Source: Trypanosoma brucei
Taxonomy: Eukaryota
Assembly: GCA_000002445.1 (NCBI GenBank)
Contig: CH464491.1
Location: forward strand, 4,000,001 to 4,064,000
DNA: 64,000 nt
Direction of reading: 5' to 3'
The number at the start of each line of letters is the position of its first letter. Within the stretch, counting starts at the first letter, position 1. The notes under the pieces are model-generated. The model was not told where the DNA came from, did no database searches, and was given only the letters and a program-made list of their open reading frames with translations. Positions 3,666-29,970 of the stretch are shown here, in pieces. The position numbers and the translations under genes are program-made.

Positions 3666-4786
3666 CGCCAACAAGAAAACAAAGTGAGACTTGTGTGAGA
3701 CGAGCAACTCCTCTTTAGTGAGCACATGGCAGCTGTCCACTTCGTGCAACGCCAAAGGTGGTACAGACTGAAAAAGCGCGGTGGTGAAAACCTGATAGCG
3801 TAGCCACAGGACAACGGCACACAGTTAGTGCCCCTCACACCATTTTAACACATCCGCCAAACACTCATCAAATATTCACATCCTCAACGGGGCCACCGGA
3901 ACCGCCAACGGATTGCACGAAACTCACAGACGACACCGTATGCCGCGCACCACTGGAAAAAAAAAAGGCATATCAAGGTCTCTATCTTCCCTGAAAGCAT
4001 ACGCCCAGTTTAACAATTCACACACTCACTTGCATCACACACAAGCTCCTACTCTTCTTTTTTTTCTTTTTCTTTTTTTTTTTTGCTATCCCCTTCACCC
4101 GCCATACGCATAGAGACAACTTCACACAGTTGATTCAAGTGATTTCAAAGGTTTCATCACAACACAACCACACACGCACGTAACATTTGTTGCGGTGCAT
4201 GAGCGAAAGTGACAAAAAAGCATTACCACTGAGAACCCACATTAAGTGAGAGGAACTATTTGTATTAAAGAGGAAGGAAGGGACTGGCGAGTGGAAACAA
4301 AAAAAGAAAAAAAAAAAGAAGCGCACGACCACTGAATGGAAGGCAAACACAACCCGGAGTGAATAAATGTTATCATCCCTCGCTCATGGTTTAATAGTCC
4401 ATCGAGTATTCTCATATGACACAGAAATACGTCCGACTACAAACCACAAGATAGAGATTTTAAACATACAGTAACAAAATTGCCAGGCTATGAAATGTAA
4501 AAATATACATATGCACTCAGAAGACGCTAGGTCCTCTACCCCTACTGCGGGGAAAGCAAAGAGAGAAAAAAACACTTTGTTACTCCGTACACAAACTCTA
4601 CTGTCAACTTTGTTCGCACTATCTTACTGTGATGTTTCAGACTAAACAACAACATGATGGGTATTCCCTCCTTAACTCTTCGTACATACTCATTTTGCAC
4701 GTTGGAGGTCCGATTTATTCCCAGTTTTTTTCCAAAAAGGAGTACATCGCAACGGTTTTTTTTTTTTTGGTGGGGTAGGAAAAATG

Positions 4787-7700
4787 TCATTTTGTTTGAT
4801 TTCGTGCATCCACGCCGATGGGGTGTAAACTCATAAGCTTATATAACCACTTGAAGCCACGCTCCATAGCTTGTTGGGTCCACTTATGAGTATCATGGGT
4901 AATGTCCTTTAGCCATGTTCGTCCACGTGAATCCTTCACTCGCTTGCAGAAGGTTTCTTTGCAACTTTCTTCCGCAAGGCTCCGCATTAGCGTTAAGTTC
5001 ATCAGCGCTGTCAACTCTCCTATGTGTTTAATTCCGTCGAGCGCATTACGGCGGACAATGTGAGAAAGAAGTTGGTGCATAATGCCCGCGTACGACCGCA
5101 CTTCGAGAAACCAATCAGCAGTTTGTATAATAAATCTCGTACAGGAATCGTCTTGTTCCCCCTCAGTCTGCACTTCCGGCGCGGGTTCTTCTTTCATAAA
5201 GTATTCAATGCAACCCTCGAGGTCAGAGTCGAATCGGACATAGGAAGGTAGGACATGCTCGGCTAACGTCCGTGTTGTTAAAAGCATACCATAATCGATG
5301 TGGAATATAGCACCACTCGGATGAATCATAACATTCTCACGATGTCGATCACCGATTGCAAATATATAATTCAGCAATATGAAAAACTTTGCGGAGCACA
5401 TGAAACACTCACGGGCAAGAGCAGCTGATTTTTGACTATCGAAGTCTTTAACTATCAAACTATTAGGTTGTCCACACTGATGTCCCGCTCCTCGTACCCT
5501 TTCATGAAGTTGAGGTTCCGACACCGAGTCCCCCAGCTGGCCTTGTGTCTTCTCAAGTGACACAAGGTGCTGAAGCAGGCGACCCTCTTTGTCCTTTCCA
5601 ATCACACGGTGAATTGTCTGCCCGTCCTTTACCACCTCTATCAAACCCGAAGACGGCGAAAGCAAAATAACGCGATACGTGGGAAGGACCACGTTGCCTA
5701 TTTGCTTGTAGAGCACCCACCGCAAAAACCGCGAGGTGACACACATCACTTTATCCTTTTCAAGGTTTTCCCTCTTGACAAGAATACCCCGCGTCACACC
5801 TTCTGCATCAACGAGCGGAATCGAAACAGGCCGTTGACTAGATTCCATTATCTTGATACCCCCCAAGTCGATGTGTGTTATAACCACACTACTGTCAAAC
5901 GGAAACAGCATAGGCGATACGGCACACAGCCCATTGCGTTCCTGCGCAATCCTCGATGAAGTTGACAAACAACCAGAGACGGATTCGCCGGTCGTTTCCG
6001 CCAAACCCCCCATTAGCCCACTGTTCGAGAGCTGAGTAACAAGCGCCCTCTGATACTCCCTGGCATCCCCACCCACCGGGACAAGATTCACCTCAGGTGT
6101 GATCAAGTTTAAAAACTTAAGTGTATTGAGAAATTTCTGATGTGATTCCGGGAATGTGTCAGCGTTTCTTTCAATGACGCGCTCCTGTAGTGTGCGGTAG
6201 CTGAATTCATTGACCCTCATTCGCGCTGACGCCTCTTGACAAATAACGATCGCCAACTGTGGATCGAGCTTCGACAAGGAGAGTAGAACGGACACAACAC
6301 GGGGCTGGCAGCTCTCGAGATCAAAGATATCCAACAGGAGCAACACAACACATTCTCGTATGCACGTATCCAGCGACGTAATCCAATCTCGCAGCAGGTG
6401 CTTTGTCACTATTTTCCGTATTTTTTCCGCTGTTGCATGGCCTTGTGGTGCACGGTGCAAACACTCCAGAATTTTGATACCAAAGAACGGTGGTAGCATC
6501 CGACCGCAAGTGCGTGTGCACAACATATACCAGTGGCTCAATGGCGGCTTCCAATAGAAGTCACGAAGCTGTGGTGACATTGGCGGCGGTGCGGCTCCCT
6601 TTGCCGTTTGCTCGATTGCTGCGCAGGCCTTCTCAACAAGTTCATTGTTCTCCCAGTCAATAGATATGAAGAGAAATATGAGAGGCTCGGGGTGGCCAAC
6701 CAAAAGATTAACGCTACTGGCAAGGATCTGTGCTGTCCGTTTTGGTATCTTCATGTTCCACATGTTCTCGTAGAGAGATGATCTGTAGTCACTGAGGCAC
6801 AACTCGGCTGCAGCCCTCCACTGCTCGTTGACGGTACGTAAGAGTGCGATATCCACGATAGATAGGCCGGCACAAACGAATGTGGTGCAAAGAAATGTGT
6901 GTTTATTTATCATCATTGCTTGATCGTAGCACCTCTTGCATGCGTGACGCATTCTGCCCTCCTCCGGTTGACCAGGCTTACTTAACTTGGCCAATGACTT
7001 GTCTAGCATCCATGACGTGCACTGCTCACACATGCGCCGGCCACAGCAACGGCAGTTACGCGCCCGAACCGCAGCAAACAACAGAGCCGGCCATGAGGAG
7101 AAAGATCTCTTGCACTCTGAGCACGTCTTAGCCGAGTCTTCCCCCTCCCACACAGGGTTCTGGTAAAGGGTGTGGCCTTTTTTTGCGAAGTCCTCCCCAA
7201 GATACGATGCTTCAGTCATAGTCGTCGAACTGGGGTCAATGGATTGCGTCAAATCCCCAACGTGATAAAATTCGGGATAGAAATAGCGATCCTTCTTCAA
7301 CCATGCCACACATGGGAGCTGATGGTTGGATTTGTCAGCTCCCGTGGCTATTAGCACATCTTTTGATGGCTGGAGCGACCGTGGCTGGGGCGAACCCGGT
7401 TCAGCACTGCCACCACCGATTCTAAATGCAGTCATGACCTTCTCCCGGAAAGCTAAGACTTCACATAACTTCTCTTTGCTGTTTAATGACGCAAGCGAAC
7501 GGATATCAGTGTCACAAAACACTTCCTCCTTGTATATTCGACCAAATTCACCACAAAGGACGGCAAACGTTTTTTCCATTTCTAGACGCGCACTTAACTC
7601 TAAAACCTCCATAAATAATTCCCTGTTGCGTGTCAATTCGCACGCATTGTAGCACGATACGGTTCCGTTCCGGGACAATGTTGTCTCGGAAAAAAAAACA

Positions 7701-14061: not shown

Positions 14062-17000
14062 TCACATCGCTGCAAGTTGATTTTTTGTTACTTCGTTCAA
14101 CACATCCTGGTCGGCCGCCTTCATGCGCGCCACGATTTCGCCCGCGTGCCTACCTCGGCCCTGAATCACGGGGTGCTGCTGCACGACCCACATTAACACC
14201 TTCTCGTGCACGCGGCGGGCCTCTACGTCATCGCCTCGAACGGGAAGGTTGCTGACGACTAGTGTAAGAACCTCCACCAGTCCCTGCTCCGGAAGAGTGG
14301 AGTGAAACAAGGAAAGAAGCGTGGTCGCTGCACTTACCGCGTTGCACGTAGTAGACTCATAGTCTCCTGTGCGCTGAACAGCAATGAAGCGAGTGAAGAG
14401 AGAACTTACCCGATGCACGAACTCCGGTGTACTCGGGTCGGGGTTACGGCCAAAGTACTGCAACAACAAGTTCATGAGGTAAAAAGCAGACTGCAAGAGA
14501 TCACAGTCTTCACGGCTCTGCGCGAAGTCCAAACAACTCTCGACAATTGTCGGGATGAAGCTTCCAATATGATTCGGCGCATGCTCCACTAATCCGCAAA
14601 GCAGCGCGAGACCGCAAGTAACCACGGAATCCTTCTCATTCTTCTGCAGCAGTTTCTCTAGAACGGGTGCGAACATGACCAAGAAGACAGGGGCAAATAC
14701 GTCACCCGCCCGCTCAAGCATTTTATCGAGGACATTGCAGGTGTCCGAAATGAGTGTGTCGGCCTCTTCCTCCTCACCCTGAAGCCTATCCAGCTCGTCC
14801 TCGTCGTTCTCACCAACCTGGCTCTCCAAACTTTGCACCCGATTCTCCATGGCCCGTTCTAGCACAGCGAGAACCTTTTCACCAATAACGGTAACCGTAT
14901 CTTGTGAGACAAGGCCTGGGGCACTGTCAATGCAACGGCTAATCACCACCGACATCGCACTTGACGCATCCAACTCATCCTCGTCGGCGAACTGGTTCAA
15001 CAACGGATCCATGATGGCAACAGCCAAGTGAGCCCGCTCATCAACTTCATAAGCGTTTAGAACCTCATCCAAAATCGCCGCCCCACTCTCGCGAATAGAT
15101 GAGTTTGACTGGAAACTGAGCAACTTCACTGCGGATTCTGCGATTGCCGGGAGGTGCGGCCCTAGGTGCTTTCCTAAGTACGTGAGCATGGCGCTGAGTA
15201 CACTAGCCGCAAGGTCCTTCTCCTCAATAAGACCGGTGTGCAGCTTAATCTTTTTCACACCCACGCCAGGGACAACAACCCGCATTGTTGCCACTTCTCC
15301 CCCACTCTTTCTTCCTTGCTCATCCTCGTCATCTTCCTCCCCCACCTCAGCGTTTTCCACCTCCATATCGCACTCCATATTCACCATCGAAAGAAGCACA
15401 GGCAGGACGACCTGCAGATAAGGGACCACATCCTCCCTCAGGCAGTCCGTCATGCAAGTCCACCCGCGCATGACATAACGCAACCGCATGTCGTCCTTGC
15501 ATTCTTCTTGCGACAGATGTTGTAGAAGATCACGCAAGTAGTTGCACATATGCTCCGCATACGGCCCGAACCCTTCTCTTCCAACACCACAGGCGAGAAG
15601 CGTTGTGCACTCGATGGCTTTGCACTTCATTTGAATAACATCCGGGGAGTCAGGAACTGCCAGTACCTCTTGAAACACGGGGACAAGGTTATTAACATAC
15701 GGTTTTAGCATGTCTTTGCAGGTTGATATGATAGAGGAAAGCGCCCCCAGGCAATCTTCACGGAGAAACTGATGCGGCGTTTGCCTCAGAAGAGACACTA
15801 GAGAAGCACATAGCCCCTCGACATAGCGTTCAAATTCTTTAACGAAGTGTGGGCTATCCTCTTCATCCTCTTCACATCGATCAAAGAAAGAGTCTAGGCA
15901 GCGTGCTGCCCTCGTTGCTACGGCAGGTATGGGGTCCTCGAGGCACTGAACGACAGCAGGTAAGATCATGTGGCATAGATTCTCCTGGAGTTGAGGGGCA
16001 AAGTCGGTAGACATCTGGGTAAGGCAATCCAACGCACTCGCACGGACATACTTCATATCATCCCGAAGAGCTGGTAGCACCATGCAAACAATGGACTTCA
16101 GGTGCTTTTCAAGCACAGAAGACATCCCTTCAGCGACATAAGTAATTAGAAGTAATGCCGCATTACGTTGCTTCCAGTCGGGGGACTGGATGTTTTCCGA
16201 GAAAAGCTGTTGAGCGAGAGCTTCCAGCTTTCTACCCCCGAGGGCGGAGGCTAATCGGTCGATACCACTGCTGCCGACGGTCTCGTCAAGGTCTTCATCA
16301 AGATCGTCCTCGTCAGTGTTCACACCTTTGACATCCCAGTCGTCAGGAATCGCGGGGTTAACGGTGTATTCGAAGAGCAAACGCAAAAATGATGTTGAAA
16401 AGTCTGGTACCTTCCGCGCTGTTTTTGGTTCACTCTCACAGTAGGTTAAGAGGGCCTCAATAGCCATGTGTCGAGCACCTGGTGCCACAGATGGTGCGGA
16501 AGCCACCTCCATCAGCCCTTGCAGCAATGGAGCAGTGTGCCGCTCAAAAAGCGTTGCAGAGTGAGACACACCCTCCGCCAACTTGCCAGTTAAAGCTTCC
16601 GCGTCCCCCCAATTCGATGCGTTGAGGGCATCTTGCACAGCCTGCAGTATCAGCGGAACCAAATCGGCAAGCTCACGAGACGGTCTGCACATGGTGAGAT
16701 TAAAAATCGCATCCAAAGCTGCTTTTCGCGAATCCACGGACGGGTCGAGAAGGCAGTTCTTCAGGCCTGCCGCTACCCGAACCACATTCGCCTCAAAATG
16801 CTCCGTTAAGGAAGGACCCGTCGCAGCAATAATCTCACAGCAGATTGTTTTCAGCTGATGCGCGGATTCTAAATCTTCAATTATCTGAAAGATAGACTTC
16901 CAAAGCTCATCCCATTCCTTTTCTATGTTTTTCAACTTAACAACAAGGGCACTCACACAGGCAGCAGCCAATGCACGCTGTGCACCAAATGCTGCTTTCC

Positions 17001-17280
17001 CCAGCACCTGTAGCATCAAACCCTTTACAGCGTTCTGCGTCTCAGCGTCTGCTGTGTCAAAACAGTCAGATTTATTTCCAAAAAGTTTTTTTAACAAGAC
17101 AAGGCCCATTTGCATAGTGGAGGTGTTTTCCGTTGACGCGCATAGCTCTGACAAGCAGCACATCATCCAAGTAGCATTCCCGTGAACAAGGGAATCATAC
17201 TGAGCCTCTGCGGATTTTCGAACCTCATTGTCCGCGGAGAGCAGGTTGGTGACAAGCTGGTTCAGCTGCTCTTGGTTCAT
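14062..17280 (-). CDS. Importin-beta family nuclear transport receptor (1072 aa; importin-5/Kap-beta3-like)
   Basis: N-terminal importin-beta N-terminal-like segment 'LLSADNEVRKSAEAQYDSL', followed by ~1000 aa of repetitive helical HEAT/ARM-like units rich in L/A/E. An acidic insert (DEDDLDEDLDE) is typical of karyopherins. Uninterrupted ORF. Confidence 0.8.
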   Translation of the reverse strand: MNQEQLNQLVTNLLSADNEVRKSAEAQYDSLVHGNATWMMCCLSELCASTENTSTMQMGLVLLKKLFGNKSDCFDTADAETQNAVKGLMLQVLGKAAFGAQRALAAACVSALVVKLKNIEKEWDELWKSIFQIIEDLESAHQLKTICCEIIAATGPSLTEHFEANVVRVAAGLKNCLLDPSVDSRKAALDAIFNLTMCRPSRELADLVPLILQAVQDALNASNWGDAEALTGKLAEGVSHSATLFERHTAPLLQGLMEVASAPSVAPGARHMAIEALLTYCESEPKTARKVPDFSTSFLRLLFEYTVNPAIPDDWDVKGVNTDEDDLDEDLDETVGSSGIDRLASALGGRKLEALAQQLFSENIQSPDWKQRNAALLLITYVAEGMSSVLEKHLKSIVCMVLPALRDDMKYVRASALDCLTQMSTDFAPQLQENLCHMILPAVVQCLEDPIPAVATRAARCLDSFFDRCEEDEEDSPHFVKEFERYVEGLCASLVSLLRQTPHQFLREDCLGALSSIISTCKDMLKPYVNNLVPVFQEVLAVPDSPDVIQMKCKAIECTTLLACGVGREGFGPYAEHMCNYLRDLLQHLSQEECKDDMRLRYVMRGWTCMTDCLREDVVPYLQVVLPVLLSMVNMECDMEVENAEVGEEDDEDEQGRKSGGEVATMRVVVPGVGVKKIKLHTGLIEEKDLAASVLSAMLTYLGKHLGPHLPAIAESAVKLLSFQSNSSIRESGAAILDEVLNAYEVDERAHLAVAIMDPLLNQFADEDELDASSAMSVVISRCIDSAPGLVSQDTVTVIGEKVLAVLERAMENRVQSLESQVGENDEDELDRLQGEEEEADTLISDTCNVLDKMLERAGDVFAPVFLVMFAPVLEKLLQKNEKDSVVTCGLALLCGLVEHAPNHIGSFIPTIVESCLDFAQSREDCDLLQSAFYLMNLLLQYFGRNPDPSTPEFVHRVSSLFTRFIAVQRTGDYESTTCNAVSAATTLLSLFHSTLPEQGLVEVLTLVVSNLPVRGDDVEARRVHEKVLMWVVQQHPVIQGRGRHAGEIVARMKAADQDVLNEVTKNQLAAM

Positions 17281-19330
17281 GGGATGTAGATACTTTTGAT
17301 CTTAAGAAATCTTTTTACAAGAAAAGGGAAAGACTCTCCCGTTCTGTCCCTTTGATCGTTCCCCTGGACGTTCACAAGGTCGATGTTTATTTCGTTAAAG
17401 ATAACCAATTGTTTCTTTCTTATTTCCTTCTTACTCCTTAATTTCTCTTCCGGTTTACAGCTGTCTCCCTTTGTTCACACCTTACGTTTGCAATCGTACT
17501 CGTGGCTATACCACGCGGTAAACCCAAGTGGAGAAAAAGTGTTTCAGAGAAAATTTGATTGGTGTGCTGTTGGGGGGGGGGGAGAGTTGCGCACCAATTC
17601 ATATTGAAGCGAAAACGGTAGCAGAAGTAACAGCAACAATTTGTTTTAAAAGGGAAGCAATGCCCCAGAAGCATTACCCAAAATAAACTACTGTGTAAAT
17701 ACAGGGGGTTCATAATTATGCAGTCGATAAATAAACTAAGAGGACGTGGAATCGCCGTAGAAACCAAACCAACACACGAAAAAAAAAAGAGACTGTGTAA
17801 AAACACGAACTAATAACAAAAGCAGGACAGGCAGTAGAAAATATGCTGTTATTTGTTTCATAGTAGCATATATTACTTCCATGCTAAAACAAAAAGATGG
17901 TTGATGTGTCCGTGGTCGTAGACAAACCCCCGGCGTAGCAACTTGCAAAACGGAAAAAACAGGCAACATGGTAAGTGTTTCACGCACGTTAGAACACAGT
18001 TTACATAGAGGGAGAGCAGGCCACATGCAATTAATTTCGAAATAAAAAAAACTGTTATCCGAGAAAAATTGGTGGGAGAGTAGCTATCCTGTGAGTTGCA
18101 CCAGTTCAGTTACAGTCAAAGGATATGTCACACTGCGCCTGTAAGTTGTTCAAAATGCTCTGACCGCTCCATCTGAGGGTCAGATAAACCACTTACGAAG
18201 AGCCCATCTTTGCTTTGTCGTCTACGTGGGTTCAGTCATACAACAGCATATGGTACGTCCGTGACCCACCGCGGAAAACGAAAACTGTCACTGCACAGAA
18301 CATCGCATAACTTCGGCAACCGAGGTCACTGGAAGTGCGTATGATAGTGGAACAAGTATAGATACAAGTGTGCACCGGGTAACGTCACTTGTGGTGCCGA
18401 AACCGAGACGACTGTATTCGGTAGCAACATCATTTCTCGCATCACTGCGTGATCAAGAATGCACAACAGCCATTTTATTGTATAAATGCGAGCGTACACA
18501 CAACAGTACGAACTTTTTTAAAATTTAAGCTGCAGAGTTTAGTACACAGAATGTGAGGAGGCTAATCCCTTGGGACCGTTACCTAACAAGATTCCAGAAA
18601 ATTTAACTTTCTAGAAACGATTGTACAATGTAGTCTCCACCCTTAACCCTGTAGCAGTAAAAGCTGCAGGTACTCGAGAGGTAGGTCACTATTCTGTCAA
18701 GCTGTCCCCTGCTCGAACCATAATAGAAGATCGGGTGTGCAAATGCGTGAGAGAAGTAAATTTCTTCATCCGCTGGCCTGGGGCGAGGGTCTCGGAAGCC
18801 GTGACAGCATACGACAAACGTATGACACATTGTAGCGCCCTTCTTTATCACCTGTATCCATGATAATCCCGTTTAGTCATACTGTATAAACTAGTCCAGC
18901 AAAATTACGCAATCACACCTTCAATAACCTACAGCGGTACTCTGCAGTGGGCAGGCTCCGGCGTTAGCGTGGGTTCCAACGGCATGAACGAGTGATAGAA
19001 ACCCTCCCTCGCTACGTAGAAAAGAACACAGTTTTGCGCATGCAAACTACACACAATATTCAACAACGAGAAAAAAACTAACACTTGGTCGCGGCGCAAT
19101 GTCCTTTGGAAAAGCTGTATATATGGCAAAAGCAGGGTCACAAATTTTTGAAAGCAAGGTCGTCCCATTTGTTGCAGGTTGTAATTTTGGCATTATCACA
19201 TGAGAAGATAGTGCGTGAAGAGGCGACACTTCTAGTAGAGCCCGGTTACCCAAGAAAAAAACAAGGAACACAAAATAAGAGAGTACCTTCTTAGCCAAAG
19301 AAGTGGAAGAAACGACATAAAATACATATA

Positions 19331-19741
19331 TCACGATTCTTTCGTTCTTGTTCCTTTTTCCTTCCTAAGCAACTCGTTGTTGACCATAACATAAGGATGT
19401 CCACATATTTTTTTGCTGTGCCGCGTATTGTTTCTAAGAAGGTACTGGGATAGCCAAGATATAGGGTGCGTATTTCCAGTAGGTCCGTAGCGATGGGAAA
19501 CCTCGTCGGGTTCCAAAGCGCACTGCTGCTGACGCTTTACTAATTCGTACAGGGCTGGAACGAGTGTTGGGAAGACGTTTTCACGCAAATATGTGACATT
19601 TTCTCCCTCACACGATGCATTGACAGCTGTCTCGACATCCTCATATCCGCACCAAATCTGCTCTTCAATCAGCCGAATCATCATAGCCTCACTAAGAGCC
19701 TGTGTATCCGCCGATACCTCCATTGTAGTTACGTCTATCAA
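19331..19741 (-). CDS. Dpy-30 motif-containing protein (136 aa)
   Basis: 'YLRENVFPTLVPALYELVKRQ...' followed by '...HPISWLSQYLLRNN' matches the Dpy-30 dimerisation/docking motif pattern (YL..V.P.L..GL..L......P.DP...L..YLL.N). Confidence 0.6.
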   Translation of the reverse strand: MIDVTTMEVSADTQALSEAMMIRLIEEQIWCGYEDVETAVNASCEGENVTYLRENVFPTLVPALYELVKRQQQCALEPDEVSHRYGPTGNTHPISWLSQYLLRNNTRHSKKICGHPYVMVNNELLRKEKGTRTKES

Positions 19742-22700
19742 CCCCTAAAAAGAATCAAAAAGTAAGAGGTTGTTATGTTTAAGAATTGATGTGCGTGCAA
19801 GTAGGGGCAAACATCCATAGGTACATTGTGTTTAAGCGGTCGCATCACAGCTCAGCTTCAAAAAAAACGATCCCATTATTATAAATAACTGGCAGTTAAG
19901 CACCCCCAGGTTATGTGTATATGTGTACGTGCGTTTGTGCATATGAATGTGCGTACTTATATAGTGGGTAAATTGGAAACGCAAGGAAACGTGTTGACAA
20001 AAAATTAAACGCATCAGCAACGACGAAGAGAAAAATCCAAATAAACAACAGGGAAGTCTTTTGTAAACCACGCACGTTCCTCCACGTACTATGCGACAGA
20101 AATTTTTATTTATCGATACACCAAGACAGTATTTGCTAAGGAATTGCCACGCAGGTTGATGTGAAGGATAAGATATATCCATTTATTAACTAAATGGACG
20201 AAAGCGGATGGAAGTGTCAAACAATCAAGGAAAAATTAAATGCGCCCAGAAAATCAACGATTTTCACTGGTCGTACGAATAGCAACTTCCATTATACCTC
20301 AATAAAGAAAAAATAGCCCTGGGAAAGTGAGGTAGCTAGAACTGTTACTACTTGCATAGTACGCCTTTTCAAGCAAGCAACTTCAGGCGGTATACCTACC
20401 AACTTATCAAGTCACCTGAGATCAGTGGGGAAATCAAGATATCTAGTAACAGAAAACATGTCCACAATGCAGAGAGAGTGAATTAGATCCACAACATGAA
20501 GAAAAGGATGATTGAGTCAGGAAAAAAAAATCACGGCAAACGTGAGTTTAGTTTTGACATAGCGGTGGAGCGGTACATCAATCCCGAAAAAATACGAAGC
20601 GCAACTCCGTGTGTCCGATGATCAAACGACACTTCTTCACCACGGCACAAATCATAGGAAGGGCACCAAACGACGATGCTACAAAACCTTCAGACCATTG
20701 CATAAGTTCATTACCCCATAGCTCACCGTCGGAAACAAGTTTGCAGAGATATGAGTTACTCAGCCCTGCTTACCGGTAATTTCCGTGATGTCAAAAACGT
20801 CGAAGGTGAAAGAAGGACGAAAACCCCACCCTCGGCAGCTGTCGCTTCCCATTACACGCACCTTGCAGATAATCTTCCAGTTTGTCGCAAACAGGGCAAC
20901 AGCTGCGCCAACAGCACACAAATACAAAGCCACGAAACCGCCTCCTCCTCTGCCTCCCCCCCCCCCAAATATCACACACAATACACTCAAAGGTGTGTGG
21001 TAACGTCAAAATTCTGACGTCTTTTTCGGTGATGCAGCATGCCAAGCCTGAGACTCCTGATGAAATACTGAAGAAGAAAATTAACATTAGCAGGTCAAAT
21101 TTTCGTAGGTTTAATCTCGAGTTTTCCTACAAACTTCAGGAAACCAAGGTTCATAAAGATCATTAGCAACATTTGTTACATAAGCCAAACAGATGCATTA
21201 CTTCAAATAACGAGGACATATACAACCAAAGGCACTGTGCACCGATGGGTGGCACCGTCGTGCAACGACACAAACGCTTTCTGCCGGATGACATATGTCG
21301 GGAAATGCATTTTATCTACTGAAGAGGGAGATAGTGCAACCCTCTTTGATGAGACTGGCCCCTTCGTATATACGCCCTTCCTCCTTACCACCTGAAACGG
21401 TACGACATCGTAACTGTTGCGTCGTTATTATTCCACTCTCATACGTCGACTTCTTCTCATCACAAAACTGGCGCCACGGAACCATTACACAGGGGTGGTA
21501 CAACCCGTGAGCAACAAATAACATACGCAACATCAGTTTTAGAGGGACGTTACAAATTATTTTGGATCATTTCCGGGAAGAGTGAATTTTGACTCAACAA
21601 ACTAAGCGTTGCGCAGCCAATAAATGAGAAATAAGACCCCCTGGCCAACTCGCAGACAAGTGCTCACCACACAAAAGGTTGGTTGTGCAGGGGGGAACGT
21701 GTGAAGACATGAAAATAACGTGGTGACGTCAATACTGGAGTTGTGGTGTCACATATGACTTCCGCTTCACCATATACTTTGCCAACCCACATATCGCTCT
21801 TATACCTAATGGAAAGTAGTGGAGCGCCCAAGAAATACGAAAACTCGCCAACAAGCAACTTCCAAGACATTACAATCACTGTCTACATGTGCTCGAACGG
21901 TCTTCAAACGAACCTCTTCTTGAGGTAGATAGGCTACATTCAGACATAAGCGCATGTTCTTCGAGTAATGAAAGGATGCAAGTTGTATGACAGCACGACT
22001 CTTGTGACCACCAAAGGGTGGCACCCGTTCAAAAGTAAAAAAAAGATTGACGCGTCCACCCAAGATATTTGTCCGCTGCATTATTGCATGGAGACAGGAA
22101 ACGGCAATCGGTTCTTTCGACCGCGCTAGGTGAAAATGCCAACTTCCCGAAGTCTCAGCTCTATCGCCTTTAGTGGAGCCGTTTTCCCCTTCATGCGCTT
22201 TACGACCACAAAGGGCACACAGATCTGTATACCGAATAGCAAGTTCTACCACGTTTGAATAAAGGTGCACAGATGATTGTACAGAGGGGAATGTCATTGC
22301 ACAACCTTTCTACCCTTTAAGCCCCTTGTCCCTGCTGCCCCTCAGCACCCAGTTAATTGACCGTTCAGCCAGGTTCATCCTATTTTTCCAATGGAAACAA
22401 CACTGCCGGATGCAAAAGAGTCAAAACAGGGGAGCAGAAACCAGATTCCTCCCCCTCCTTCCCCCTGAGAATTAATAGCGATACATGAGCTCCCATGTTG
22501 CCCCTAAAGGCATACAAGAAACTAGGCCAAAGGTGAACCACATGGGAAGCGGCCGGAGTAGCAGAAAAACAAATCGATTCTGACCACTTCAACACAGAGC
22601 CAGGGCTCCGCACCTCCCCAAGGTAAGGCGAGACAACTACTCACAACCACCTCACCATAATTATCCTGTGGAGGAAAGACCGAGGTCTTGGTCCGCCGCG

Positions 22701-23354
22701 GGCGGCGCAGCACATCCACAGAGGGACAAATATCGCAGCTAGCGGCTTCGCGGGAGCGGAGTCACCAACAACAACACCAACGGCACCGAATTACCACCTA
22801 CACACCCCTGGAAGAACGCCACTGGGCTCGTGGCGGGGACGGCGCCTAACCATCCTCTCGCCCACTGTTTCCATCACTTTTCTTCAGGGCCTCTCCCTCC
22901 CATTCTCATTTCTCTTGCCCTTAGGCGTCGGCGGCCCTTCGTTTGCGACCATTGTGGGATGCGCCTGTGTTTCCAAACCCCACATGGGGCTAAGCAAACG
23001 CGACGCAAGTGGGGGACGGGCGCGGCACTCGGCGGCACCGTTCCACTGCGGGGGGAGAGACCATGCAGACTTTCTCGAACCCGCATAAATCGTACGATCG
23101 GGCCCTTTACAAAACATTGTTCACGACGAGAACGTTCCAACCAGCAGCGGTTCAGTAAGTGCGACAACGTTTCCCCCCAGTCGTTGCGCTGGCTTATGCC
23201 TTCGAGTGTCGCATGGAAGTGCTGGCCCCCCTCTTATCAAGTGTACGGCTCATCCGATTGCACGCTGTAGCGCGCGCATTGAGCACACCGCCGCCGCGGC
23301 GCGCGTCTGACTAGCAAGTGAAGTCCACCGGCGCCAACTTAATGCACTAGAACC

Positions 23355-23434
23355 CCCTGGCGATGCCGGCCACCTCAACGTGGTGCCAGGGTCCAGTCTC
23401 CCGTATCATCGGGGGAAGCCAAGAGCCAGCAGCG
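23355..23434 (+). mobile_element. Pr77-like 5' signature (~79 nt) of trypanosomatid non-LTR retroposons (ingi/RIME/L1Tc/NARTc/DIRE family)
   Basis: Sequence 'CCCTGGCGATGCCGGCCACCTCAACGTGGTGCCAGGGTCCAGTCTCCCGTATCATCGGGGGAAGCCAAGAGCCAGCAGCG' closely matches, from memory, the conserved first ~79 residues shared by ingi, RIME, L1Tc, NARTc and DIRE elements. In L1Tc this region is reported to act as an internal promoter and an HDV-like ribozyme. Confidence 0.6.
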
Positions 23435-26400
23435 TTCCTTTCATGGGGAACACTGCTGTGCTCCGGCTACAGCGTCATACAGCACGGGGATCAGAAGCGT
23501 CTTGCTGGGACACCGTTTTTCATTTGTCGGTCCCTGGGCACGTGACAGCGTTGCCATCGACGGTATCCGGAGTTTTCCCTATGACGTTGTGTACGTTTGG
23601 AAAACATCCAGTGACATTCTCGCACCCTTTTCTATTGTCAGGGATTCTGTTGGGTTACTGCGGGCCGATGGGGCTGCATTTGCCCGCTTCACGAATATCA
23701 GTCTGTTGCCGTTGCATGTTGTCGAAGCGACCACATATTTCTTTCCAAACAATACAGATTTCTCGGTTCATAATCCGTGGCATCCACCAGGCGGTGATTG
23801 TACACTGTTTCCACTGAATCGTTGTGCAACCTGCCTGTCCCACACTTCCATTTTCATATCTTTGTAATCTTCCGCACGTATGAGTCTTATTCAAGCGTGG
23901 GAGAGGGGTTTACAGCCGCATCGGAGGTTTGCGCAACGTCGACAGCCCTCATGGACATACGCGATGGCGGTAAGATCCGACTAAGGGCTGCTAGCAATTG
24001 TTGAAGCCGTATTGCTGTGCGGCAACTTTGTTGAAGTTCCAAATGCTGTGTTGTAAGCCGAACCTTAACGGTTCTTTCCACCGATCTTCATAGGCACCTC
24101 GTGAGCGTCAGTAGTTCGTATGAGTTTTCATATTTCATTTTCTTACAAGCTGCTAGGGCATGGATGTTCAGACGACACATGATTCTGTTTTGATGTTTCG
24201 ATTCTCTTCTACGGACTCATATCAAACAGTTAAAGCAAGAGCGTAAATTATTTGTTTCTGGGATGTTACTGTGTTTCGCTGCCCAGATAAGGGGAGGCAG
24301 CCGCCGAGACACGTGGTAGCTGATGCGGTGATATCATGAGTTGAAAAAGTGTTATCGTTCGGAGCTATATCATTTTTGTGTTTATAAACACTAACTATTG
24401 TGAGTAGCTATGCCGCTTGAGAGACGAAGGGCATAGGTCAGGGAAGTGCCTCACCCGTTACCGGCCACTGGCAGAAACTTCGTCCGCCATAGCCAGCGGA
24501 GTGCTGTGAAACATTGGAGTATATATACATATACATATGCTGGTGATGCATCACCCATATGGGTCTTAAACCTTTAGTCGTCACAAAAGTGCACACCACC
24601 TCTTCAATGCCACAGGATCCAGCGGTTGCTTCCGCATAGCACTCAGCCCTTCCTCAATTTAGTGAGATCAAGCTCTTAGTAGCGTTTATCTACAGGGTTA
24701 AGAAAGTTCGTGTTCCCAGTGTTGTATTGTACTGTGGTGTTCCCCTACTCACTCGTGGGGCAGCTCCAGCAGGTTGAAATAAGATCGTGGGGTAGAAGTC
24801 AATCGTTTGCCCAACCCACATAAACTCCGCCATTTCTGCCCTTTTTTTCCTTGTACGTTCCCTCGGTCTCCCTTCCGAATTCACCCCACTTAAGTTTTGT
24901 TCATACATGAAAAAGAGGTATCCGACACTGGAGGTTCAGGTTATCCATTGTGTTTTTCCGCTAAATTACACAGGATAAGATAGGGTGATGGTACATATTT
25001 GCTGAAGTGTAGTGATATCCATGCGTACACCCCGCGCCATCTTTACAGGGGATGCATCATGTTCGGGCTTCGCCGCTCAGTGCGGGCACTTGGTGCCATG
25101 GCCAGTTTTTGGTTGACTCGAAAATGGTTGTTGATGCAGCGCCGCATTAAAGTTTCTCCTTTGGTATGTGGTTGGATGGTGCGGCATCAGGAAAGCGCGT
25201 TGGCAAGAGCACCGGCACCAATGAGTTACGCAAGTCAGGTTACGCGCATTGGCTTATTTACCCCTAGCATTAAAGTGTGGCGTGACAGAGTTACTAGTGA
25301 AAGCGGCAATTTGCATCCTATCTTGTAGATGGGCGATGGCCCGCGTATCTTAGACGTGTGAAATGACTTCTATTCATGGCTCTGCTAGAAGGTCTTCCAT
25401 AATGAGTATACGAGCATGCCGCTACCTTCTTACACATGTAAGTTGTCCTGTGATGTGTTGGTAAAAGGTAGAGCTTATGGACCTTGATTATGCAGTTGTT
25501 ATACTAGTTCTATTCACGGCACAGAAGGTTGAAAATGCATCAACGAGCGTTTTATAGAATATACTGGGATTACTTTCCTCTAGAACGTGGTGCAACTCTA
25601 TTGATGTTCCAATGCCAGAACTTTTATAGACCCCCCTTTACGTGAATGGACAGAGGTGTTCTTTGTAGTGGGAAATCGTCGGATAATGCGTTCCCAGGGA
25701 TCGAAGAGTGCATAGTTGTATTCCAGAAAGATGCAACCCTCAAGTATTCCGTGTTTTGTGTAATTCCGTAGCCGTATTATAGTGGTGTTTTCTAGGTGAG
25801 AAACGCTGCCTGCTTTTGGCTTCTTCTGAACACCGTAAAGTACAGGAAAGCGTGCCAAGGCGCTCAGGCAGCCGGCGCCGAGAGGGTGTAACGAAGCAAA
25901 TACTGTGGAAGTGAGTGGTAAAGCTGTGCCACATTGATGTGGAAGGAGAGGGGGAAATACTGTGCGGCGCCCTTCCTTGTTTCGATGGATGCAAATTTTC
26001 AGAACCCGCAACCATTGATACTCGCAAAGTGCGCATTTACACAAAGGCGAAGAGTGACAACACTTTGACTAGTGATTGAAACGTTACAAAAAAGGTGCCC
26101 CCAACATGGGTATGAAAGATATTTAGAAACTCTAAGAAGGTCAGTGCCAGCCACGCCATCGTGATGCCAGGGGTTGCTGCAAGAAGGGGAAGGCCAAGCA
26201 TTTACACGCATCCCTGCTTGTATGAATTGCGGCAGCAGGCGGCAGTCCAGCACACACGACACAACCCTCCTGAAAAAAATTACGGATGGAGGCGCAAAGA
26301 AGTGGAACCTGGTAACGGAAAGTCCCTAGTGTCCGGAGGCAATTTTTCAGAAAGGCTGCCCTGGCACGACACCAAAAAATAGTAGCACATGATTGTGAGG

Positions 26401-28500
26401 GAAAGAAAGGCCACAACGAACCAATAGCCTAGTACCAGGAGATATTCGCTTATTTATTCTGATACCCAAAGCTTGTAAGTGCGATGAAATAAATGGAGCC
26501 AATGGGCACAGTGGAACATGAAGGAGGCCAATCCGAGGAGCCGGAGCAACCCCTTCTGAAACTTTTCAAACTTCCAGATTAAAGCAAGAAAAATCCCATC
26601 GTGAAGAACAACTACGTGGCCGCAGAAGAGAGCCTCGGAATCCCTTACTACAGTTTTGTGGCTCGCCACCAACTCTCTGAGCCCAAACAAAATGTTGCGC
26701 TGCTAAAAGGGGCCGAAAGGATTACCAAATCCTGAAATGAGCACGCAGGGAAACGAGAGCGCACCCTACCTACACAGTTTTCATGCAGAGAAAAAGTTCT
26801 AGGGAACCGCTCGATCCTTCTGTAAGCAAGCGAATGAAAATCAAGCGGCAATGGGGCACGTTCCGGTTGAACGGACGGGGAAGGAAAAGTGCTGTGCACT
26901 ATGCATTCGCAAGTGTGTGAATCTTCTTGCCTTCATCTTGAGCATTCACTCGCGGGCCCCCTATGGGAGGCACATTTGTGCAGAGCCTCTTAGTGAAATC
27001 CAAGGTACCTGATTTATGAGGCGCATCCCAACCACTGGAGCACCATCCCCCCACAAAACTCAGTCGTTGGTGTATTGGGTGATTGTGAAAATGAAGTCAA
27101 CCTCTTATGCCTACGAAATGCTCTCCTGTATCCCTCGATGTCAGGTAGTATCCCACAGCCATTTCATATGCAACTTTATCAACGCATCCCAGTCCCGCCT
27201 CTTTGGGCGTGTGCACTCTCTCCATCCACCGGAAGGTGAGGCTGAGAACCACTAGGCGATGACACCCTAGCACACCCTTGCTTGGGTGATTCCAAAGTAG
27301 GAGGTTCTAGGCGTTTCATTCTCGGGAATTCCACTCTGACGACGCTACTGCTCCGAGTTCTATGAATATTTTTCCCTTCTGACTTTACTGTTTATTGAAC
27401 GTGCTCTAACACTCCCCCTTGGCGGCTTCAACGCGAGTGCCGAAAGCGTTTGGTACCTTTACATTATCAATTTCCCTTCACATAGCAGTGAGATGCAACA
27501 AATCACGAGTACGTACAACACCCGACCGACACTCTGTTGTTCACCATGGTGACCCACGGTGCAGGTTAAACGCACCACGCACTGCCGTACCCTTGAAGTG
27601 ACAGCCTCCGCACCTTTTACTTCTTAGAAGATACCACAAACAGAATTGCCATCCTCCTCCAATTTCCAACCTAGTCCCTCTTTTTCTAACCTCGGACTCA
27701 GCGTTAAAGGGAGAAATAACATTGGGTGCAAAGGGAAAACTTGTACACGCGTTGATTCAGATGCAAGCCCATCCAACTGACTAATGAAAACTAGGGCTTG
27801 AGGGGGGGGGGCACATTTTTATGCAATACACGACAAGCTAATTCCACAGAAGCTGAAGAATTACGGCAAAAAGTGGCATCAACCCCAGCACACTATGCGG
27901 TTAACCTGCAAAATGGAGGCTGTGCCTATTATCACAGTGGAATAAAATCTCTGGTTGGACGTGATTCTGCTTCTTTGCCCCCCTTTTTGGCCATATGCAC
28001 GCCCTCTCCCGTTTTTTATTCTACACTGCGAATATTTACTTCCAACAATGTAGAGCATCAGCAAGCAAAACGCACATATTATCACCAAGCATTGTGACCC
28101 TTCACCCATGCTGTTACTTTCCTCGTCAACGCCATAATGACCCATATGCACTCTTTTTTTTTCTGTCTCAAGAAATTCGTTCGCTTCACCTAGTTAAGCA
28201 TAAATTTCACGACAAAATTTCATCGCCACCACCACCTCCTCCCTATTGAAGTATTGCACTTCTTTATTGACCCGGATACTGCATGTTACGGTGGATGAAC
28301 CCCCGCTTTTGTTTGGGATTTTCGTGAAACGAAGGAGTACAGCTCCACCCTCGCTTCCTTCCCCCGTGCACTTCGATGATGCAACATCCTTGCGTGTTCC
28401 AACAGATAATGCAAACTGGTATTCCACATTCATTTGACAGCGACCAAAAAGAAATCGACAGCGCGTTAAATCACCATTAACCCGATCTGAATCCGATTCC
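23355..28500 (+). mobile_element. Putative degenerate retroposon body (DIRE/ingi-like relic) downstream of the Pr77-like signature; 3' boundary not determined
   Basis: The ~5 kb downstream of the signature has only short, fragmented ORFs in all frames (max ~150 aa) and no terminal poly(A) that I can find. It lies inside a ~10-kb gene-poor interval, which is unusual for this otherwise gene-dense unit. The extent is inferred from the typical 5-5.5 kb size of ingi/DIRE. Confidence 0.3.
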
Positions 28501-28778
28501 GAGACTCCCGATTCGCAACTTCCCGTTACGTTATGATGCCACGGCAACAACCGTAAGAAGGCCTCCTCCCGTACCGGCATCCGTTTAAGGTCCTCTGAAC
28601 GAGATCGCTTCTTAAGCCTAAAATAACGGTTGTTAAATTCATTTAGCAATCTTCCTAAGCTCACACTGTAAACGGTAATATTTGTCTTTAACGCCTTCAT
28701 ATATTCCCTCACCCGTCGTCTCCCCTTTATCTTCAGCTCACTCGTGGGATCAATTACTCCCTTAATGTGCTGTTCCAA
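28194..28778 (-). CDS. Orphan ORF (194 aa) inside the gene-poor / retroposon-relic interval; coding status doubtful
   Basis: Longest ORF in the 19.8-29.9 kb interval, same strand as the flanking genes. No recognisable motifs. Could be chance, or a fragment of degenerated element sequence. Confidence 0.2.
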   Translation of the reverse strand: MEQHIKGVIDPTSELKIKGRRRVREYMKALKTNITVYSVSLGRLLNEFNNRYFRLKKRSRSEDLKRMPVREEAFLRLLPWHHNVTGSCESGVSESDSDRVNGDLTRCRFLFGRCQMNVEYQFALSVGTRKDVASSKCTGEGSEGGAVLLRFTKIPNKSGGSSTVTCSIRVNKEVQYFNREEVVVAMKFCREIYA

Positions 28779-29970
28779 CCAATAGGAATGCTACTCAAAG
28801 AGAGTGATATTGGCTAATAGTTGCCTCTTTATCTGTGCCTTGCGATAGAAGACTTCGTAACCGAAAACCCCCGGATTGTTCATATCTATCTGTGTAGCCC
28901 ATCCTGTATTTTTTTCCGTTGCTCCACAACTGTAAAATATGTGTAACACGAAATAACAAGCATATACCCTTTTCATTCCAGGAATTATCTGCCTCTTCCG
29001 CTTGATTTCGGTGTTACACGTCCAAACCTACTTTGTCCCACCCACCCCCTACGCACACACTGAATAAGTAAATAACCTAATCAATTGACGTCAAGGCTTA
29101 AACCCCCCCTAAAACTGGCGAAGGCGCGAAACCAAGGGGAGAACGAGGTCACATATGTGTTGGGTGGAAAGTAATAACTGGCGCGGGAGCTGTTACATTA
29201 TTTGACATGCGTATGTTTGTTTGGTAGGGCACCGGAAAGAACTGCAGCCCCAGGGCCAAGAACTTTATCCGTGGAATTGGTGATAAGGGCATCCTGTTTG
29301 TTGAAGCATTGCTTTTCTAGCCGTTGCAACTCCCATCATAACCCGCACAAATTGCCCTAATATCCTGAATGTAATTCTACCTACCAAATATCGGAACGTT
29401 GGGGGTGCTTTCGCTAGGCGGGTGAGAAAAAATACTTCACACAATGTAGTAGCACCCGCATCAGATGAATGCTTGATCCTGCTTAATCTTTGCTGTGCGC
29501 ACCAAACATCCAAACTCCACTAGCATCGATATTCTTCCCGCGACAAACGAGGTTCACGTTGTCATCAGAGTCAAATAACTGTGGGAGAGGAAGCCGCCAC
29601 CGCAATCGGACCCATCATGCCGCGCAAATTCTACTCAATAAGAGGCATGTGAGGGGGCGGTGGCGACGTGACGGGTAAAAGTTACGACGAAAAGAGTGTT
29701 ATGTGTGTCTTTGAAAGTGTGGCGAGCGTTGAAGCGACAGCTCTTTAAGTTGTTCCCCAAGTTTGTTTGAGGGGACTGTCGGTGCGGGAATGAAAGCAGA
29801 CAGTTCACGCGGAGAATGGTAAAGACGAAAAGTTGTAATCTTCTTTTAGAAGCACTACACAAATGAAAGCTAACGTGTGCAGGTGGTGACGCATGCGCTT
29901 GGATACTCAGTTCTCCGGGAGACGACGCTTTGCGTACACGAGAATACGCAAGAGCCTGTGAGTGGAAGGG

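What the first reader, a model, noticed from the sequence alone, without database searches (positions are those of the whole stretch)
23355..23434. Pr77-like retroposon 5' signature embedded in a gene-poor interval
The 80-nt stretch 'CCCTGGCGATGCCGGCCACCTCAACGTGGTGCCAGGGTCCAGTCTCCCGTATCATCGGGGGAAGCCAAGAGCCAGCAGCG' matches, from memory, the conserved first ~79 nt common to trypanosomatid non-LTR retroposons (ingi, RIME, L1Tc, NARTc, DIRE; SIDER in Leishmania). In L1Tc this region is reported to be both an internal Pol II promoter and an HDV-like self-cleaving ribozyme. Here it sits on the plus strand, antisense to the surrounding minus-strand polycistron. If the promoter is still active it could drive antisense transcription into the upstream genes, and it would mark a retroposon insertion/relic site.
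Basis: partly seen in the sequence, partly recalled or inferred. Interest (0 to 1): 0.7.

Follow-up and report, generated by a model that had tools for sequence, protein, structure and literature searches.

The report
Truncated ingi/RIME retroposon head inside DIRE
The 80-base motif is the real, well-preserved 5' "Pr77" signature of a Trypanosoma brucei ingi/RIME retroposon, but only about 212 bases of that element survive, lodged backwards inside a much older dead retroposon, which is an ordinary, already catalogued kind of genomic relic.

Summary
The quoted string sits exactly at 23355-23434 (+). The window is T. brucei brucei TREU927 chromosome 11. The string matches 78 of 80 positions of a consensus built from four other T. 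brucei ingi/RIME 5' ends. It matches 36 of the first 40 nt of the experimentally defined T. cruzi L1Tc Pr77. Homology begins exactly at element position +1. The DPE (CGTG, +25..+28), CCACC (+16..+20) and CCCT (+1..+4) are intact, and helices P1-P4 of the HDV-like ribozyme can form.

The plus-strand element ends after about 212 nt (23566). It has no ORF remnants, no RIME 3' half, no poly(A) tail and no 12-bp target-site duplication.

The degenerate coding remnants in the interval lie on the minus strand. They belong to an ancient DIRE whose own decayed Pr77 starts at 25886 and runs leftwards to about 23012. The young fragment interrupts it in inverse orientation. The same arrangement, with identical junctions, is present in T. 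b. gambiense.

Most likely a retrotransposition into the DIRE was followed by a deletion. Promoter or ribozyme activity at this copy is untested. The antisense-copy scenario is already in the literature. Verdict: already known, low interest.

The parts
23355..23434 (+). Pr77 hallmark (77-79-bp signature) of a T. brucei ingi/RIME element. It has CCCT at +1..+4, CCACC at +16..+20 and the DPE CGTG at +25..+28. The HDV-like ribozyme helices are P1 (1-7/31-37), P3 (16-19/26-29), P4 (44-49/56-61) and P2 (8-12/75-79, with one mismatch).
   Evidence: PMC4748587
23355..23566 (+). 3'-truncated 5' fragment of a relatively young ingi or RIME element (ingi nt 1 to about 213). It is 92-94% identical to other copies. 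Unrelated flanking sequence begins immediately upstream of +1. A weak, low-confidence extension of the alignment reaches 23604.
23569..25886 (-). Right (5') arm of an ancient degenerate ingi-related element (DIRE). Window 25885->24062 aligns to ingi nt 2-1771, and 23963->23604 aligns to ingi nt 2893-3242. All frames are riddled with stop codons.
   Evidence: nhmmer E 6e-55 and 2e-7
25804..25886 (-). Decayed Pr77 signature at the 5' end of the DIRE. The DPE has become CGCC, the P1 helix is broken, and it is about 58-60% identical to the young copy.
   Evidence: (E 2e-15)
25007..25559 (-). AP-endonuclease coding remnants of the DIRE, found by tblastn with ingi ORF pieces (29-37% identity).
   Evidence: E 2e-9
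24263..24652 (-). Weak remnant of the region between the endonuclease and the RT of the ingi ORF.
   Evidence: tblastn E 0.002, 31.5% over 130 aa
23012..23309 (-). Probable left (3') arm of the same DIRE (ingi nt 4550-4804), on the other side of the young fragment. The match is weak.
   Evidence: nhmmer E 3e-5
23343..23354 (+). The 12 bp immediately upstream of the element (TGCACTAGAACC), which would be the 5' copy of a target-site duplication. No second copy lies downstream within the interval.
   Evidence: positive control: the 11-12-bp TSD of RIME L001

Best explanation
This is a dead, 3'-truncated 5' end of a T. brucei ingi or RIME non-LTR retroposon. Its first ~212 nt survive, including an intact Pr77 hallmark. 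It lies in inverse orientation inside an ancient degenerate ingi-related element (DIRE) that occupies about 23.0-25.9 kb on the minus strand of a polycistronic gene cluster on chromosome 11.

Inferred history: an ingi-encoded endonuclease and reverse transcriptase inserted an ingi or RIME copy into the DIRE by target-primed reverse transcription. A later deletion then removed the rest of the new copy, its poly(A) tail and 3' target-site duplication, and about 1.2 kb of the DIRE. All of this happened before T. b. brucei and T. b. gambiense separated.

Present-day role: most likely none, i.e. a neutral relic. The promoter/ribozyme module is intact in sequence, so it could in principle start unspliced Pol II transcripts at 23355 running antisense to the cluster. 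Read-through of the cluster necessarily produces RNA antisense to ingi/RIME 5' ends, which could feed the known ingi siRNA pool.

Shown here: identity, boundaries, strand, nesting and conservation. Inferred: the insertion-then-deletion order and any transcriptional activity.
For: Organism and context: five ORFs match TREU927 chr11 proteins EAN80479-EAN80498 exactly, all on the minus strand. The flanking annotated ORFs are EAN80484 and EAN80485.

Identity: the motif matches 78/80 positions of the consensus of four ingi/RIME 5' ends. It matches L1Tc Pr77 at 36/40 over the first 40 nt. Homology starts exactly at +1 and the upstream flanks are unrelated.

Reference elements were validated. L001 is a RIME (ingi 1-249 + 5008-5265, poly(A), 11-12-bp TSD). 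L003 and L004 are 5.27-kb ingi copies with EN, RT and RNase H genes. L002 carries the 2A peptide DVEENPGP and an EN whose relatives are named 'Tbingi protein'.

Truncation: blastn and nhmmer homology on the plus strand ends at about 23566. No plus-strand Pfam or tblastn hits were found.

DIRE: collinear minus-strand nhmmer hits to ingi nt 2-1771 (E 6e-55), 2893-3242 (E 2e-7) and 4550-4804 (E 3e-5) bracket the fragment. EN remnants were found by tblastn at E 2e-9. The decayed Pr77 at 25886 scores E 2e-15.

Age: the T. b. gambiense locus is 98.45% identical over 17000-26853, with identical junctions.

Module integrity: RNAfold recovers P1, P3 and P4. In the named four-helix structure, 85% of cells are paired against 35-49% when partners are slid, and 7 pairs change on both sides. 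Every position named as essential in PMC4748587 is unchanged.

Literature: ingi-derived siRNAs from both strands make up 52% of T. brucei small RNAs (PMC3447711).
Against: The left DIRE arm (23012-23309) rests on one weak nucleotide hit (E 3e-5) with no protein-level support. The nesting claim is therefore less secure than the claim that a DIRE abuts the right side.

General Pfam models see no EN or RT on either strand. The DIRE is supported only by ingi-specific comparisons.

The order of events (insertion, then deletion) is inferred. No TSD or empty site is available to prove a TPRT insertion at 23354/23355.

Folding energy of the 80-mer is not exceptional (z = -1.16). The covariation test uses only 7 sequences, and the structure was derived from one of them.

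No expression data were available, so 'inert' is an assumption.
Confidence: 0.82

Rival explanations
1. The orphan Pr77 is a working internal Pol II promoter. It fires rightwards from 23355, antisense to the gene cluster, and produces unspliced RNA across the DIRE towards Tb11.01.7040 and the V-SNARE gene. That RNA would either interfere with sense transcription or be diced into siRNAs.
For: All promoter positions named as essential in L1Tc (CCCT 1-4, CCACC 16-20, TCAA 21-24, DPE CGTG 25-28) are identical here. The signature differs from the ingi/RIME consensus at only 2 of 80 positions. The first 80 nt are also conserved in T. b. gambiense except at +44/+45. Transcription of antisense-inserted copies from Pr77 is an explicit published model (PMC3383444, Fig. 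2B).
Against: Promoter activity has been shown for T. cruzi L1Tc Pr77 in T. cruzi. The 2012 review states that no data show the function is kept in other clade members. The fragment diverges between brucei and gambiense at about 4%, no slower than its non-coding flanks, so there is no sign of selection. The genome holds hundreds of such signatures; 470 TALE target sites were reported in PMC12975129. No expression data were examined here.
Confidence: 0.12
2. The fragment is not an insertion. It is a gene-conversion patch: the 5' end of a second ancient plus-strand DIRE was overwritten by about 212 nt copied from an active ingi/RIME.
For: The alignment to ingi continues weakly (about 50% identity, with gaps) for another ~38 nt to 23604 and ends in TGGAAAA, as ingi does at nt 245-251. 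3'-truncated non-LTR fragments are not the usual product of TPRT.
Against: No plus-strand ingi homology exists beyond 23604. From there on, the homology is on the minus strand. The upstream boundary coincides exactly with element position +1. That is expected for an insertion and would be a coincidence for a conversion tract.
Confidence: 0.04
3. The juxtaposition is an assembly artefact, with a repeat-induced mis-join in the TREU927 chromosome 11 sequence.
For: ingi/RIME 5' ends are multi-copy repeats. T. equiperdum OVI contigs carrying the neighbouring genes are only 18-19 kb long, which is consistent with assemblies breaking near here.
Against: The independently assembled T. b. gambiense DAL972 chromosome has the same junctions on both sides, base for base.
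Confidence: 0.02

Closest known systems
T. brucei ingi (5.25-kb LINE) and RIME (about 0.5-kb truncated derivative)
   Same: The first ~212 nt are 92-94% identical to ingi/RIME copies fetched from T. b. gambiense and T. b. equiperdum. Homology starts at the exact element 5' end. That divergence is in the range reported for TbRIME, whose median is 4% (PMC3820030).
   Different: There is no ORF, no RIME 3' half, no poly(A) tail and no 12-bp TSD. The copy is cut off at about nt 212, before the RIME junction at nt 249.
L1Tc Pr77 promoter / L1TcRz HDV-like ribozyme (T. cruzi)
   Same: Of the first 40 nt, 36 are identical. The DPE, CCACC and +1 CCCT are the same, and the P1, P3 and P4 helices are the same. 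P2 and P4 are kept through compensatory changes, for example U10-A77 here versus A10-U76 in L1Tc.
   Different: The 3' half of the signature differs in sequence: nt 41-80 show 26 identities over 42 alignment columns, 62%. P2 has one A-G mismatch. Activity was measured for L1Tc in T. cruzi, not for this copy or in T. brucei. No Rfam family matches.
[quoted passage not shown]
   Same: The minus-strand element at about 23.0-25.9 kb is long and collinear with ingi. It starts with a decayed 79-bp signature and is full of stop codons and frameshifts.
   Different: It is shorter than the ~5 kb typical of DIREs. About 2.4 kb of ingi-equivalent sequence is missing in two gaps. No A-rich 3' end or TSD was recognised.
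TbSIDER1 / TbSIDER2
   Same: They share the 5' signature.
   Different: SIDERs share only the signature with ingi (PMC3820030). Here, homology to ingi continues to about nt 212, so this is not a SIDER.

Membership tests
[quoted passage not shown] | Sequence similarity to the experimentally defined L1Tc Pr77 (77 nt) | tested here: met
   Identical at 36 of the first 40 nt and at 62 of 82 alignment columns to oligonucleotide R77 of PMC1874656
[quoted passage not shown] | Lies at the exact 5' end of an ingi-related element (homology begins at +1) | tested here: met
   In alignments with four other copies, the flanks are unrelated up to the base before CCCTGG
[quoted passage not shown] | Downstream promoter element CGTG at +25..+28, with CCACC at +16..+20 and CCCT at +1..+4 | tested here: met
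   Read directly from the sequence against the positions given in PMC4748587
[quoted passage not shown] | Pol II promoter activity with initiation at +1 | not testable with these tools
   Needs a reporter assay or 5'-end mapping in T. brucei
HDV-like ribozyme (L1TcRz type) | Nested double-pseudoknot fold with helices P1, P2, P3 and P4 | tested here: met
   RNAfold gives P1, P3 and P4. With P2 added, 85% of cells are paired against 35-49% for slid partners, and 7 pairs change on both sides. The sample is small (7 sequences) and P2 has one mismatch. The P1.1 pseudoknot and the catalytic cytosine in J4/2 were not assigned.
HDV-like ribozyme (L1TcRz type) | Self-cleavage immediately 5' of +1 | not testable with these tools
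   Needs in vitro co-transcriptional cleavage. PMC4035085 mentions active ribozymes in T. brucei LINEs only as unpublished work.
HDV-like ribozyme (L1TcRz type) | Match to a curated Rfam HDV-like covariance model | tested here: not met
   No Rfam family reached gathering score over the window. At E<=10 over 23200-23600 there were only chance miRNA/snoRNA hits.
Full-length ingi | About 5.25 kb with an EN-RT-RNase H ORF on the same strand as the signature | tested here: not met
   Plus-strand homology ends at about 23566. No Pfam hits in plus-strand frames. No plus-strand tblastn hits with ingi ORF pieces beyond nt ~220.
Full-length ingi | 3' poly(A) tail and 12-bp target-site duplication | tested here: not met
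   No A run of 6 or more between 23355 and 26087. TGCACTAGAACC has no second copy near the element, and matches with up to 2 mismatches occur at the chance rate. The method recovers the TSD of RIME L001.
RIME | ingi nt 1 to about 250 joined to the last ~258 nt of ingi, followed by poly(A) | tested here: not met
   nhmmer with the RIME L001 matches only its nt 2-230 on the plus strand. The 3' half has no match.
DIRE (the minus-strand element 23012-25886) | Long collinear but highly diverged homology to ingi/L1Tc, beginning with a degenerate signature | tested here: met
   nhmmer hits to ingi nt 2-1771, 2893-3242 and 4550-4804, all on the minus strand and in order. The signature at 25886 scores E 2e-15.
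DIRE (the minus-strand element 23012-25886) | No coding capacity (many stops and frameshifts), but recognisable EN/RT remnants | tested here: met
   66-110 stops per ~2200 codons in the minus frames. EN remnants by tblastn at E 2e-9, spread over different frames. An RT remnant proper was not detected, and Pfam is negative.
SIDER1/SIDER2 | Similarity to ingi is confined to the 5' signature | tested here: not met
   Similarity to ingi runs to nt ~212 at 92-94% identity

The most novel reading that the evidence does not exclude
An orphan, sequence-intact Pr77 module, stripped of its retroposon body and retained since before the brucei/gambiense split, acts as a cryptic antisense Pol II start site inside a polycistronic unit. 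Its RNA overlaps sense read-through across the DIRE and makes this locus a local source of double-stranded RNA and siRNA. It would then modulate the adjacent T. brucei-specific ORFs or the V-SNARE gene.
Probability: 0.06. Interest if true: 0.5.

Novelty: already known. Interest (0 to 1): 0.15.

Why it matters
It matters little beyond correct annotation. The 79-bp signature, ingi, RIME and DIRE are well-described families. PMC2323293 states that all copies in the T. brucei genome have been identified and annotated. Hundreds of such signatures exist per genome.

The useful outcome is a precise dissection of this locus, in four points:
- The conspicuous Pr77 belongs to a different, younger and truncated element in the opposite orientation.
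- The coding remnants a reader might attribute to it are on the other strand.
- If Pr77 copies in T. brucei are ever shown to fire, orphan antisense copies like this one would be the simplest places to look for effects on polycistronic transcription.

Tried and rejected
- Rfam was searched at gathering threshold over the window and at E<=10 over 23200-23600. It gave only chance miRNA/snoRNA matches, so no curated RNA family applies.
- Pfam scans of stop-masked translations were run on all three plus frames of 23300-29900 and all three minus frames of 23400-26300. They gave no EN, RT or RNase H hit. General domain models are too insensitive for this degree of decay, and only ingi-specific comparisons worked.
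- A protein search with the spurious 145-aa ORF 23380-23814 returned only three 'hypothetical/unlikely' T. brucei proteins. These are themselves translations of ingi/RIME 5' ends. They were useful only as handles to fetch other copies.
- P0015 (Tb11.01.0560) had no contig on record.
- L002 turned out to be an internally deleted ingi, so it missed DIRE homology beyond nt ~1000. It was replaced by the near full-length L003.
- The TSD search was negative.
- I checked whether the young fragment and the DIRE 5' end form an inverted repeat that could give a hairpin RNA. The arms are only about 58-60% identical and no long complementary arms were found, so this was rejected.
- I checked for excess brucei-gambiense divergence in the fragment as a sign of gene conversion. 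The fragment has 9 differences in 212 nt and its immediate flanks have 5 in 139 nt, so there is no excess. Rejected.
- SIDER identity was rejected because homology extends well past the signature.
- Bringaud et al. 2009 (PMC2756862), which holds the insertion-site consensus, is not in the paper library. The upstream target motif could therefore not be scored.

Full report
**Source and context.** Five long minus-strand ORFs of the window match proteins EAN80479, EAN80480, EAN80483, EAN80495 and EAN80498 of Trypanosoma brucei brucei TREU927 exactly. All lie on the 5.26-Mb chromosome 11 record. Every ORF of 180 aa or more that looks like a gene is on the minus strand, so the window sits inside one polycistronic cluster transcribed right to left.

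The finding lies between two small annotated ORFs, Tb11.01.7030 (21806-22297) and Tb11.01.7040 (28194-28700). Both are labelled 'T. brucei spp.-specific protein'. The nearest annotated conserved genes are the HEAT/TOG protein, ending at 17280, and a V-SNARE-domain protein, starting at 29971. A 130-aa ORF at 19334-19723 is annotated 'hypothetical protein, conserved' in T. equiperdum only. 'Gene-poor interval' is therefore a fair description.

**The observation.** The quoted 80-mer is at 23355-23434 on the plus strand, letter for letter. Its first 42 nt are unique in the window with up to three mismatches allowed, against none in 100 shuffles.

The only Pr77 sequence I could take from a paper rather than from memory is the L1Tc oligonucleotide R77 in PMC1874656. 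The window sequence shares 36 of its first 40 nt and 62 of 82 alignment columns overall.

To compare with T. brucei elements, I fetched other copies through the spurious ORFs that annotators have called across ingi/RIME 5' ends. I then validated them:
- L001 is a textbook RIME: ingi nt 1-249 joined to nt 5008-5265, a poly(A) tail, and an 11-12-bp target-site duplication TTAGAGTTTCC.
- L003 and L004 are 5.27-kb ingi copies. L003 has called genes with Exo_endo_phos, RVT_1 and RNase_H domains.
- L002 is an internally deleted ingi that still encodes the 2A peptide DVEENPGP and an endonuclease. Relatives of that endonuclease are named 'Tbingi protein'.

Against the majority consensus of these four 5' ends, the window copy is identical at 78 of 80 positions, differing only at +44/+45. 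A profile of the signatures scores it at E = 1.6e-24. In all alignments the similarity begins at the first C of CCCTGG, and the upstream flanks are unrelated.

**Integrity of the module.** The positions that PMC4748587 names as needed for L1Tc promoter activity are all unchanged here (sequence). These are CCCT at +1..+4, CCACC at +16..+20, TCAA at +21..+24 and the DPE CGTG at +25..+28.

Folded as RNA, the 80-mer gives P1 (1-7/31-37), P3 (16-19/26-29) and P4 (44-49/56-61). These are the nested helices of the L1TcRz HDV-like fold. The energy is not unusual for its composition (z = -1.16).

I added the pseudoknotted P2 (8-12/75-79) and counted pairs on seven sequences: this copy, four T. brucei copies, L1Tc and the local DIRE. 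85% of cells pair, against 35-49% when partners are slid. Seven pairs change on both sides, for example U10-A77 here versus A10-U76 in L1Tc, and four pairs in P4. The set is small and the structure was derived from one member, so this shows compatibility only. It does not prove catalytic competence. P2 carries one A-G mismatch in all T. brucei copies. No Rfam family matches.

**What follows the signature on the plus strand.** Very little does. blastn against L001-L004 aligns 23355-23566 at 92-94% identity and then stops. nhmmer with a RIME or an ingi stretches the alignment to 23589-23604, but the last ~38 nt are about 50% identical with gaps and low posterior probability.

The RIME 3' half has no match. 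No plus-strand frame of 23300-29900 gives a Pfam hit. tblastn with ORF pieces of two ingi copies gives no plus-strand hit beyond the first ~70 codons. There is no A run of six or more between 23355 and 26087. The 12 bp upstream of the element, TGCACTAGAACC, has no second copy in the interval. The plus-strand element is therefore a 3'-truncated fragment of about 212 nt. It is neither a full ingi nor a RIME nor a SIDER.

**What fills the interval instead.** The same searches gave collinear hits on the minus strand.

With the near full-length ingi of L003, nhmmer aligns:
- ingi nt 2-1771 to window 25885->24062 (E = 6e-55);
- nt 2893-3242 to 23963->23604 (E = 2e-7);
- nt 4550-4804 to 23289->23033 (E = 3e-5).

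tblastn finds endonuclease remnants at 25559-25007 (E = 2e-9) and a weaker piece at 24652-24263 (E = 0.002).

The minus strand at 25886 begins CCCTCTCGGCGCCGGCTGCC. This is a decayed signature (profile E = 2e-15) in which the DPE has become CGCC and P1 no longer pairs. All minus frames carry dozens of stop codons.

This is a DIRE, and it runs in the same direction as the gene cluster. It is only about 58-60% identical to the young fragment over the shared 5' region, so it is far older. The two do not form a usable inverted repeat.

**Relation between the two elements.** The young fragment (23355-23566, plus strand) lies between the DIRE segment that ends at ingi nt ~3242 (window 23604, envelope to 23569) and the segment that resumes at ingi nt ~4550 (window 23289, envelope to 23309). 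Its 5' end abuts DIRE-type sequence on the left, and its truncated end abuts DIRE sequence on the right. About 1.2-1.3 kb of ingi-equivalent DIRE sequence is missing at exactly this place.

The simplest history is a target-primed insertion of an ingi or RIME into the DIRE in inverse orientation. A single later deletion then removed the rest of the insert, its poly(A) tail and 3' TSD, and the adjoining DIRE segment. This order of events is inferred. The left DIRE arm rests on one weak hit.

Nesting of ingi elements in inverse orientation does occur elsewhere. The full-length ingi in L004 is inserted into another ingi at nt ~4581 on the opposite strand.

**Age.** The syntenic region of T. b. gambiense DAL972 (L005) is 98.45% identical over 17000-26853, with only 27 gapped positions. 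Both junctions of the fragment are identical base for base.

Within the fragment the two subspecies differ at 9 of 212 positions, and at 5 of 139 in the immediate flanks. There is thus no sign of constraint or of excess change. At each differing site, one subspecies keeps the ingi consensus base. This fits independent neutral decay since the split. The shared junctions also rule out a TREU927 assembly artefact.

**How it most likely works.** As a mobile element it is dead: it has no ORF, no 3' end and no way to be reverse-transcribed. As a sequence module it is intact.

Because it is antisense to the cluster, cluster read-through does not produce the ribozyme strand. The ribozyme could matter only for plus-strand transcripts that start upstream of 23355. 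A transcript initiated by Pr77 itself starts at +1 and would have nothing to cleave. Any activity would therefore be as a promoter, giving unspliced RNA antisense to the DIRE and heading towards Tb11.01.7040. This scenario is drawn in Fig. 2B of PMC3383444.

That same review states that, as of 2012, no data showed the promoter or ribozyme functions outside L1Tc. PMC4035085 mentions active ribozymes in T. brucei LINEs only as unpublished work. Read-through of the cluster must also produce RNA antisense to the ingi/RIME 5' end. ingi-family siRNAs from both strands make up about half of T. brucei small RNAs (PMC3447711). I judge a neutral relic to be most likely, and an active antisense start site possible but unproven.

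**Comparison with what is known, and novelty.** The signature passes every sequence-level test for the Pr77/79-bp hallmark. The fragment fails the tests for full ingi, RIME and SIDER, and is best called a truncated ingi/RIME 5' fragment. The minus-strand element passes the tests for DIRE.

These families have been described since the 1980s-2000s. PMC2323293 states that all ingi/RIME and DIRE copies of T. brucei have been identified and annotated. A 2026 study counted 470 target sites for a TALE directed at this 79-bp region (PMC12975129). Nothing here departs from that picture. Interest is low. The value of the follow-up is the corrected anatomy of the locus.

Noticed in passing
window 26141-26179 (+): A third, very degenerate Pr77-like stretch: TCAGTGCCAGCCACGCCATCGTGATGCCAGGGGTTGCTG. 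It matches signature positions 6-44, including CGTG and GCCAGGG. It lies 250 bp beyond the DIRE 5' end and points away from it. E = 0.021 over the window. No ingi homology follows it. It could be the head of another ancient relic or SIDER, or it could be chance.
   Followed up: partly
L004:7400-12758: A full-length ingi (95% identical to the L003 copy) in T. b. equiperdum is inserted in inverse orientation into another ingi at about nt 4581. This is the same kind of antisense nesting seen in the window.
   Followed up: partly
window 23380-23817 (+); proteins P0015, P0016, P0017: ORFs reading through ingi/RIME 5' ends have been annotated as 'hypothetical protein' or 'hypothetical protein, unlikely' in TREU927, DAL972 and T. 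b. equiperdum. They are translations of retroposon 5' UTR and leader sequence, and are very probably not genes.
   Followed up: partly
window 17281-29970: The 12.7-kb stretch between the HEAT/TOG and V-SNARE genes holds two small ORFs annotated as T. brucei-specific (Tb11.01.7030 and Tb11.01.7040), plus a 130-aa ORF (19334-19723) annotated 'hypothetical protein, conserved' only in T. equiperdum. The retroposon relics explain only about 3 kb of this stretch, and the rest was not examined. T. equiperdum OVI contigs carrying the flanking genes are only 18-19 kb long, which suggests that assembly breaks in this interval.
   Followed up: no
window 42414-49295 (-) and 43687-48441 (+): A 2293-aa minus-strand ORF overlaps a 1584-aa ORF on the opposite strand. 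The region has strongly negative GC and AT skew (44-50 kb). This pattern is typical of a long repetitive or low-complexity coding sequence.
   Followed up: no
window 23340-23354 versus L002:7898-7912: The 15 nt upstream of the window fragment (TTAATGCACTAGAAC) and of the L002 ingi (TTGATGCATTATATT) agree at 10 of 15 positions. This may reflect the known insertion-site preference of the ingi endonuclease. The published consensus was not available to score it.
   Followed up: no
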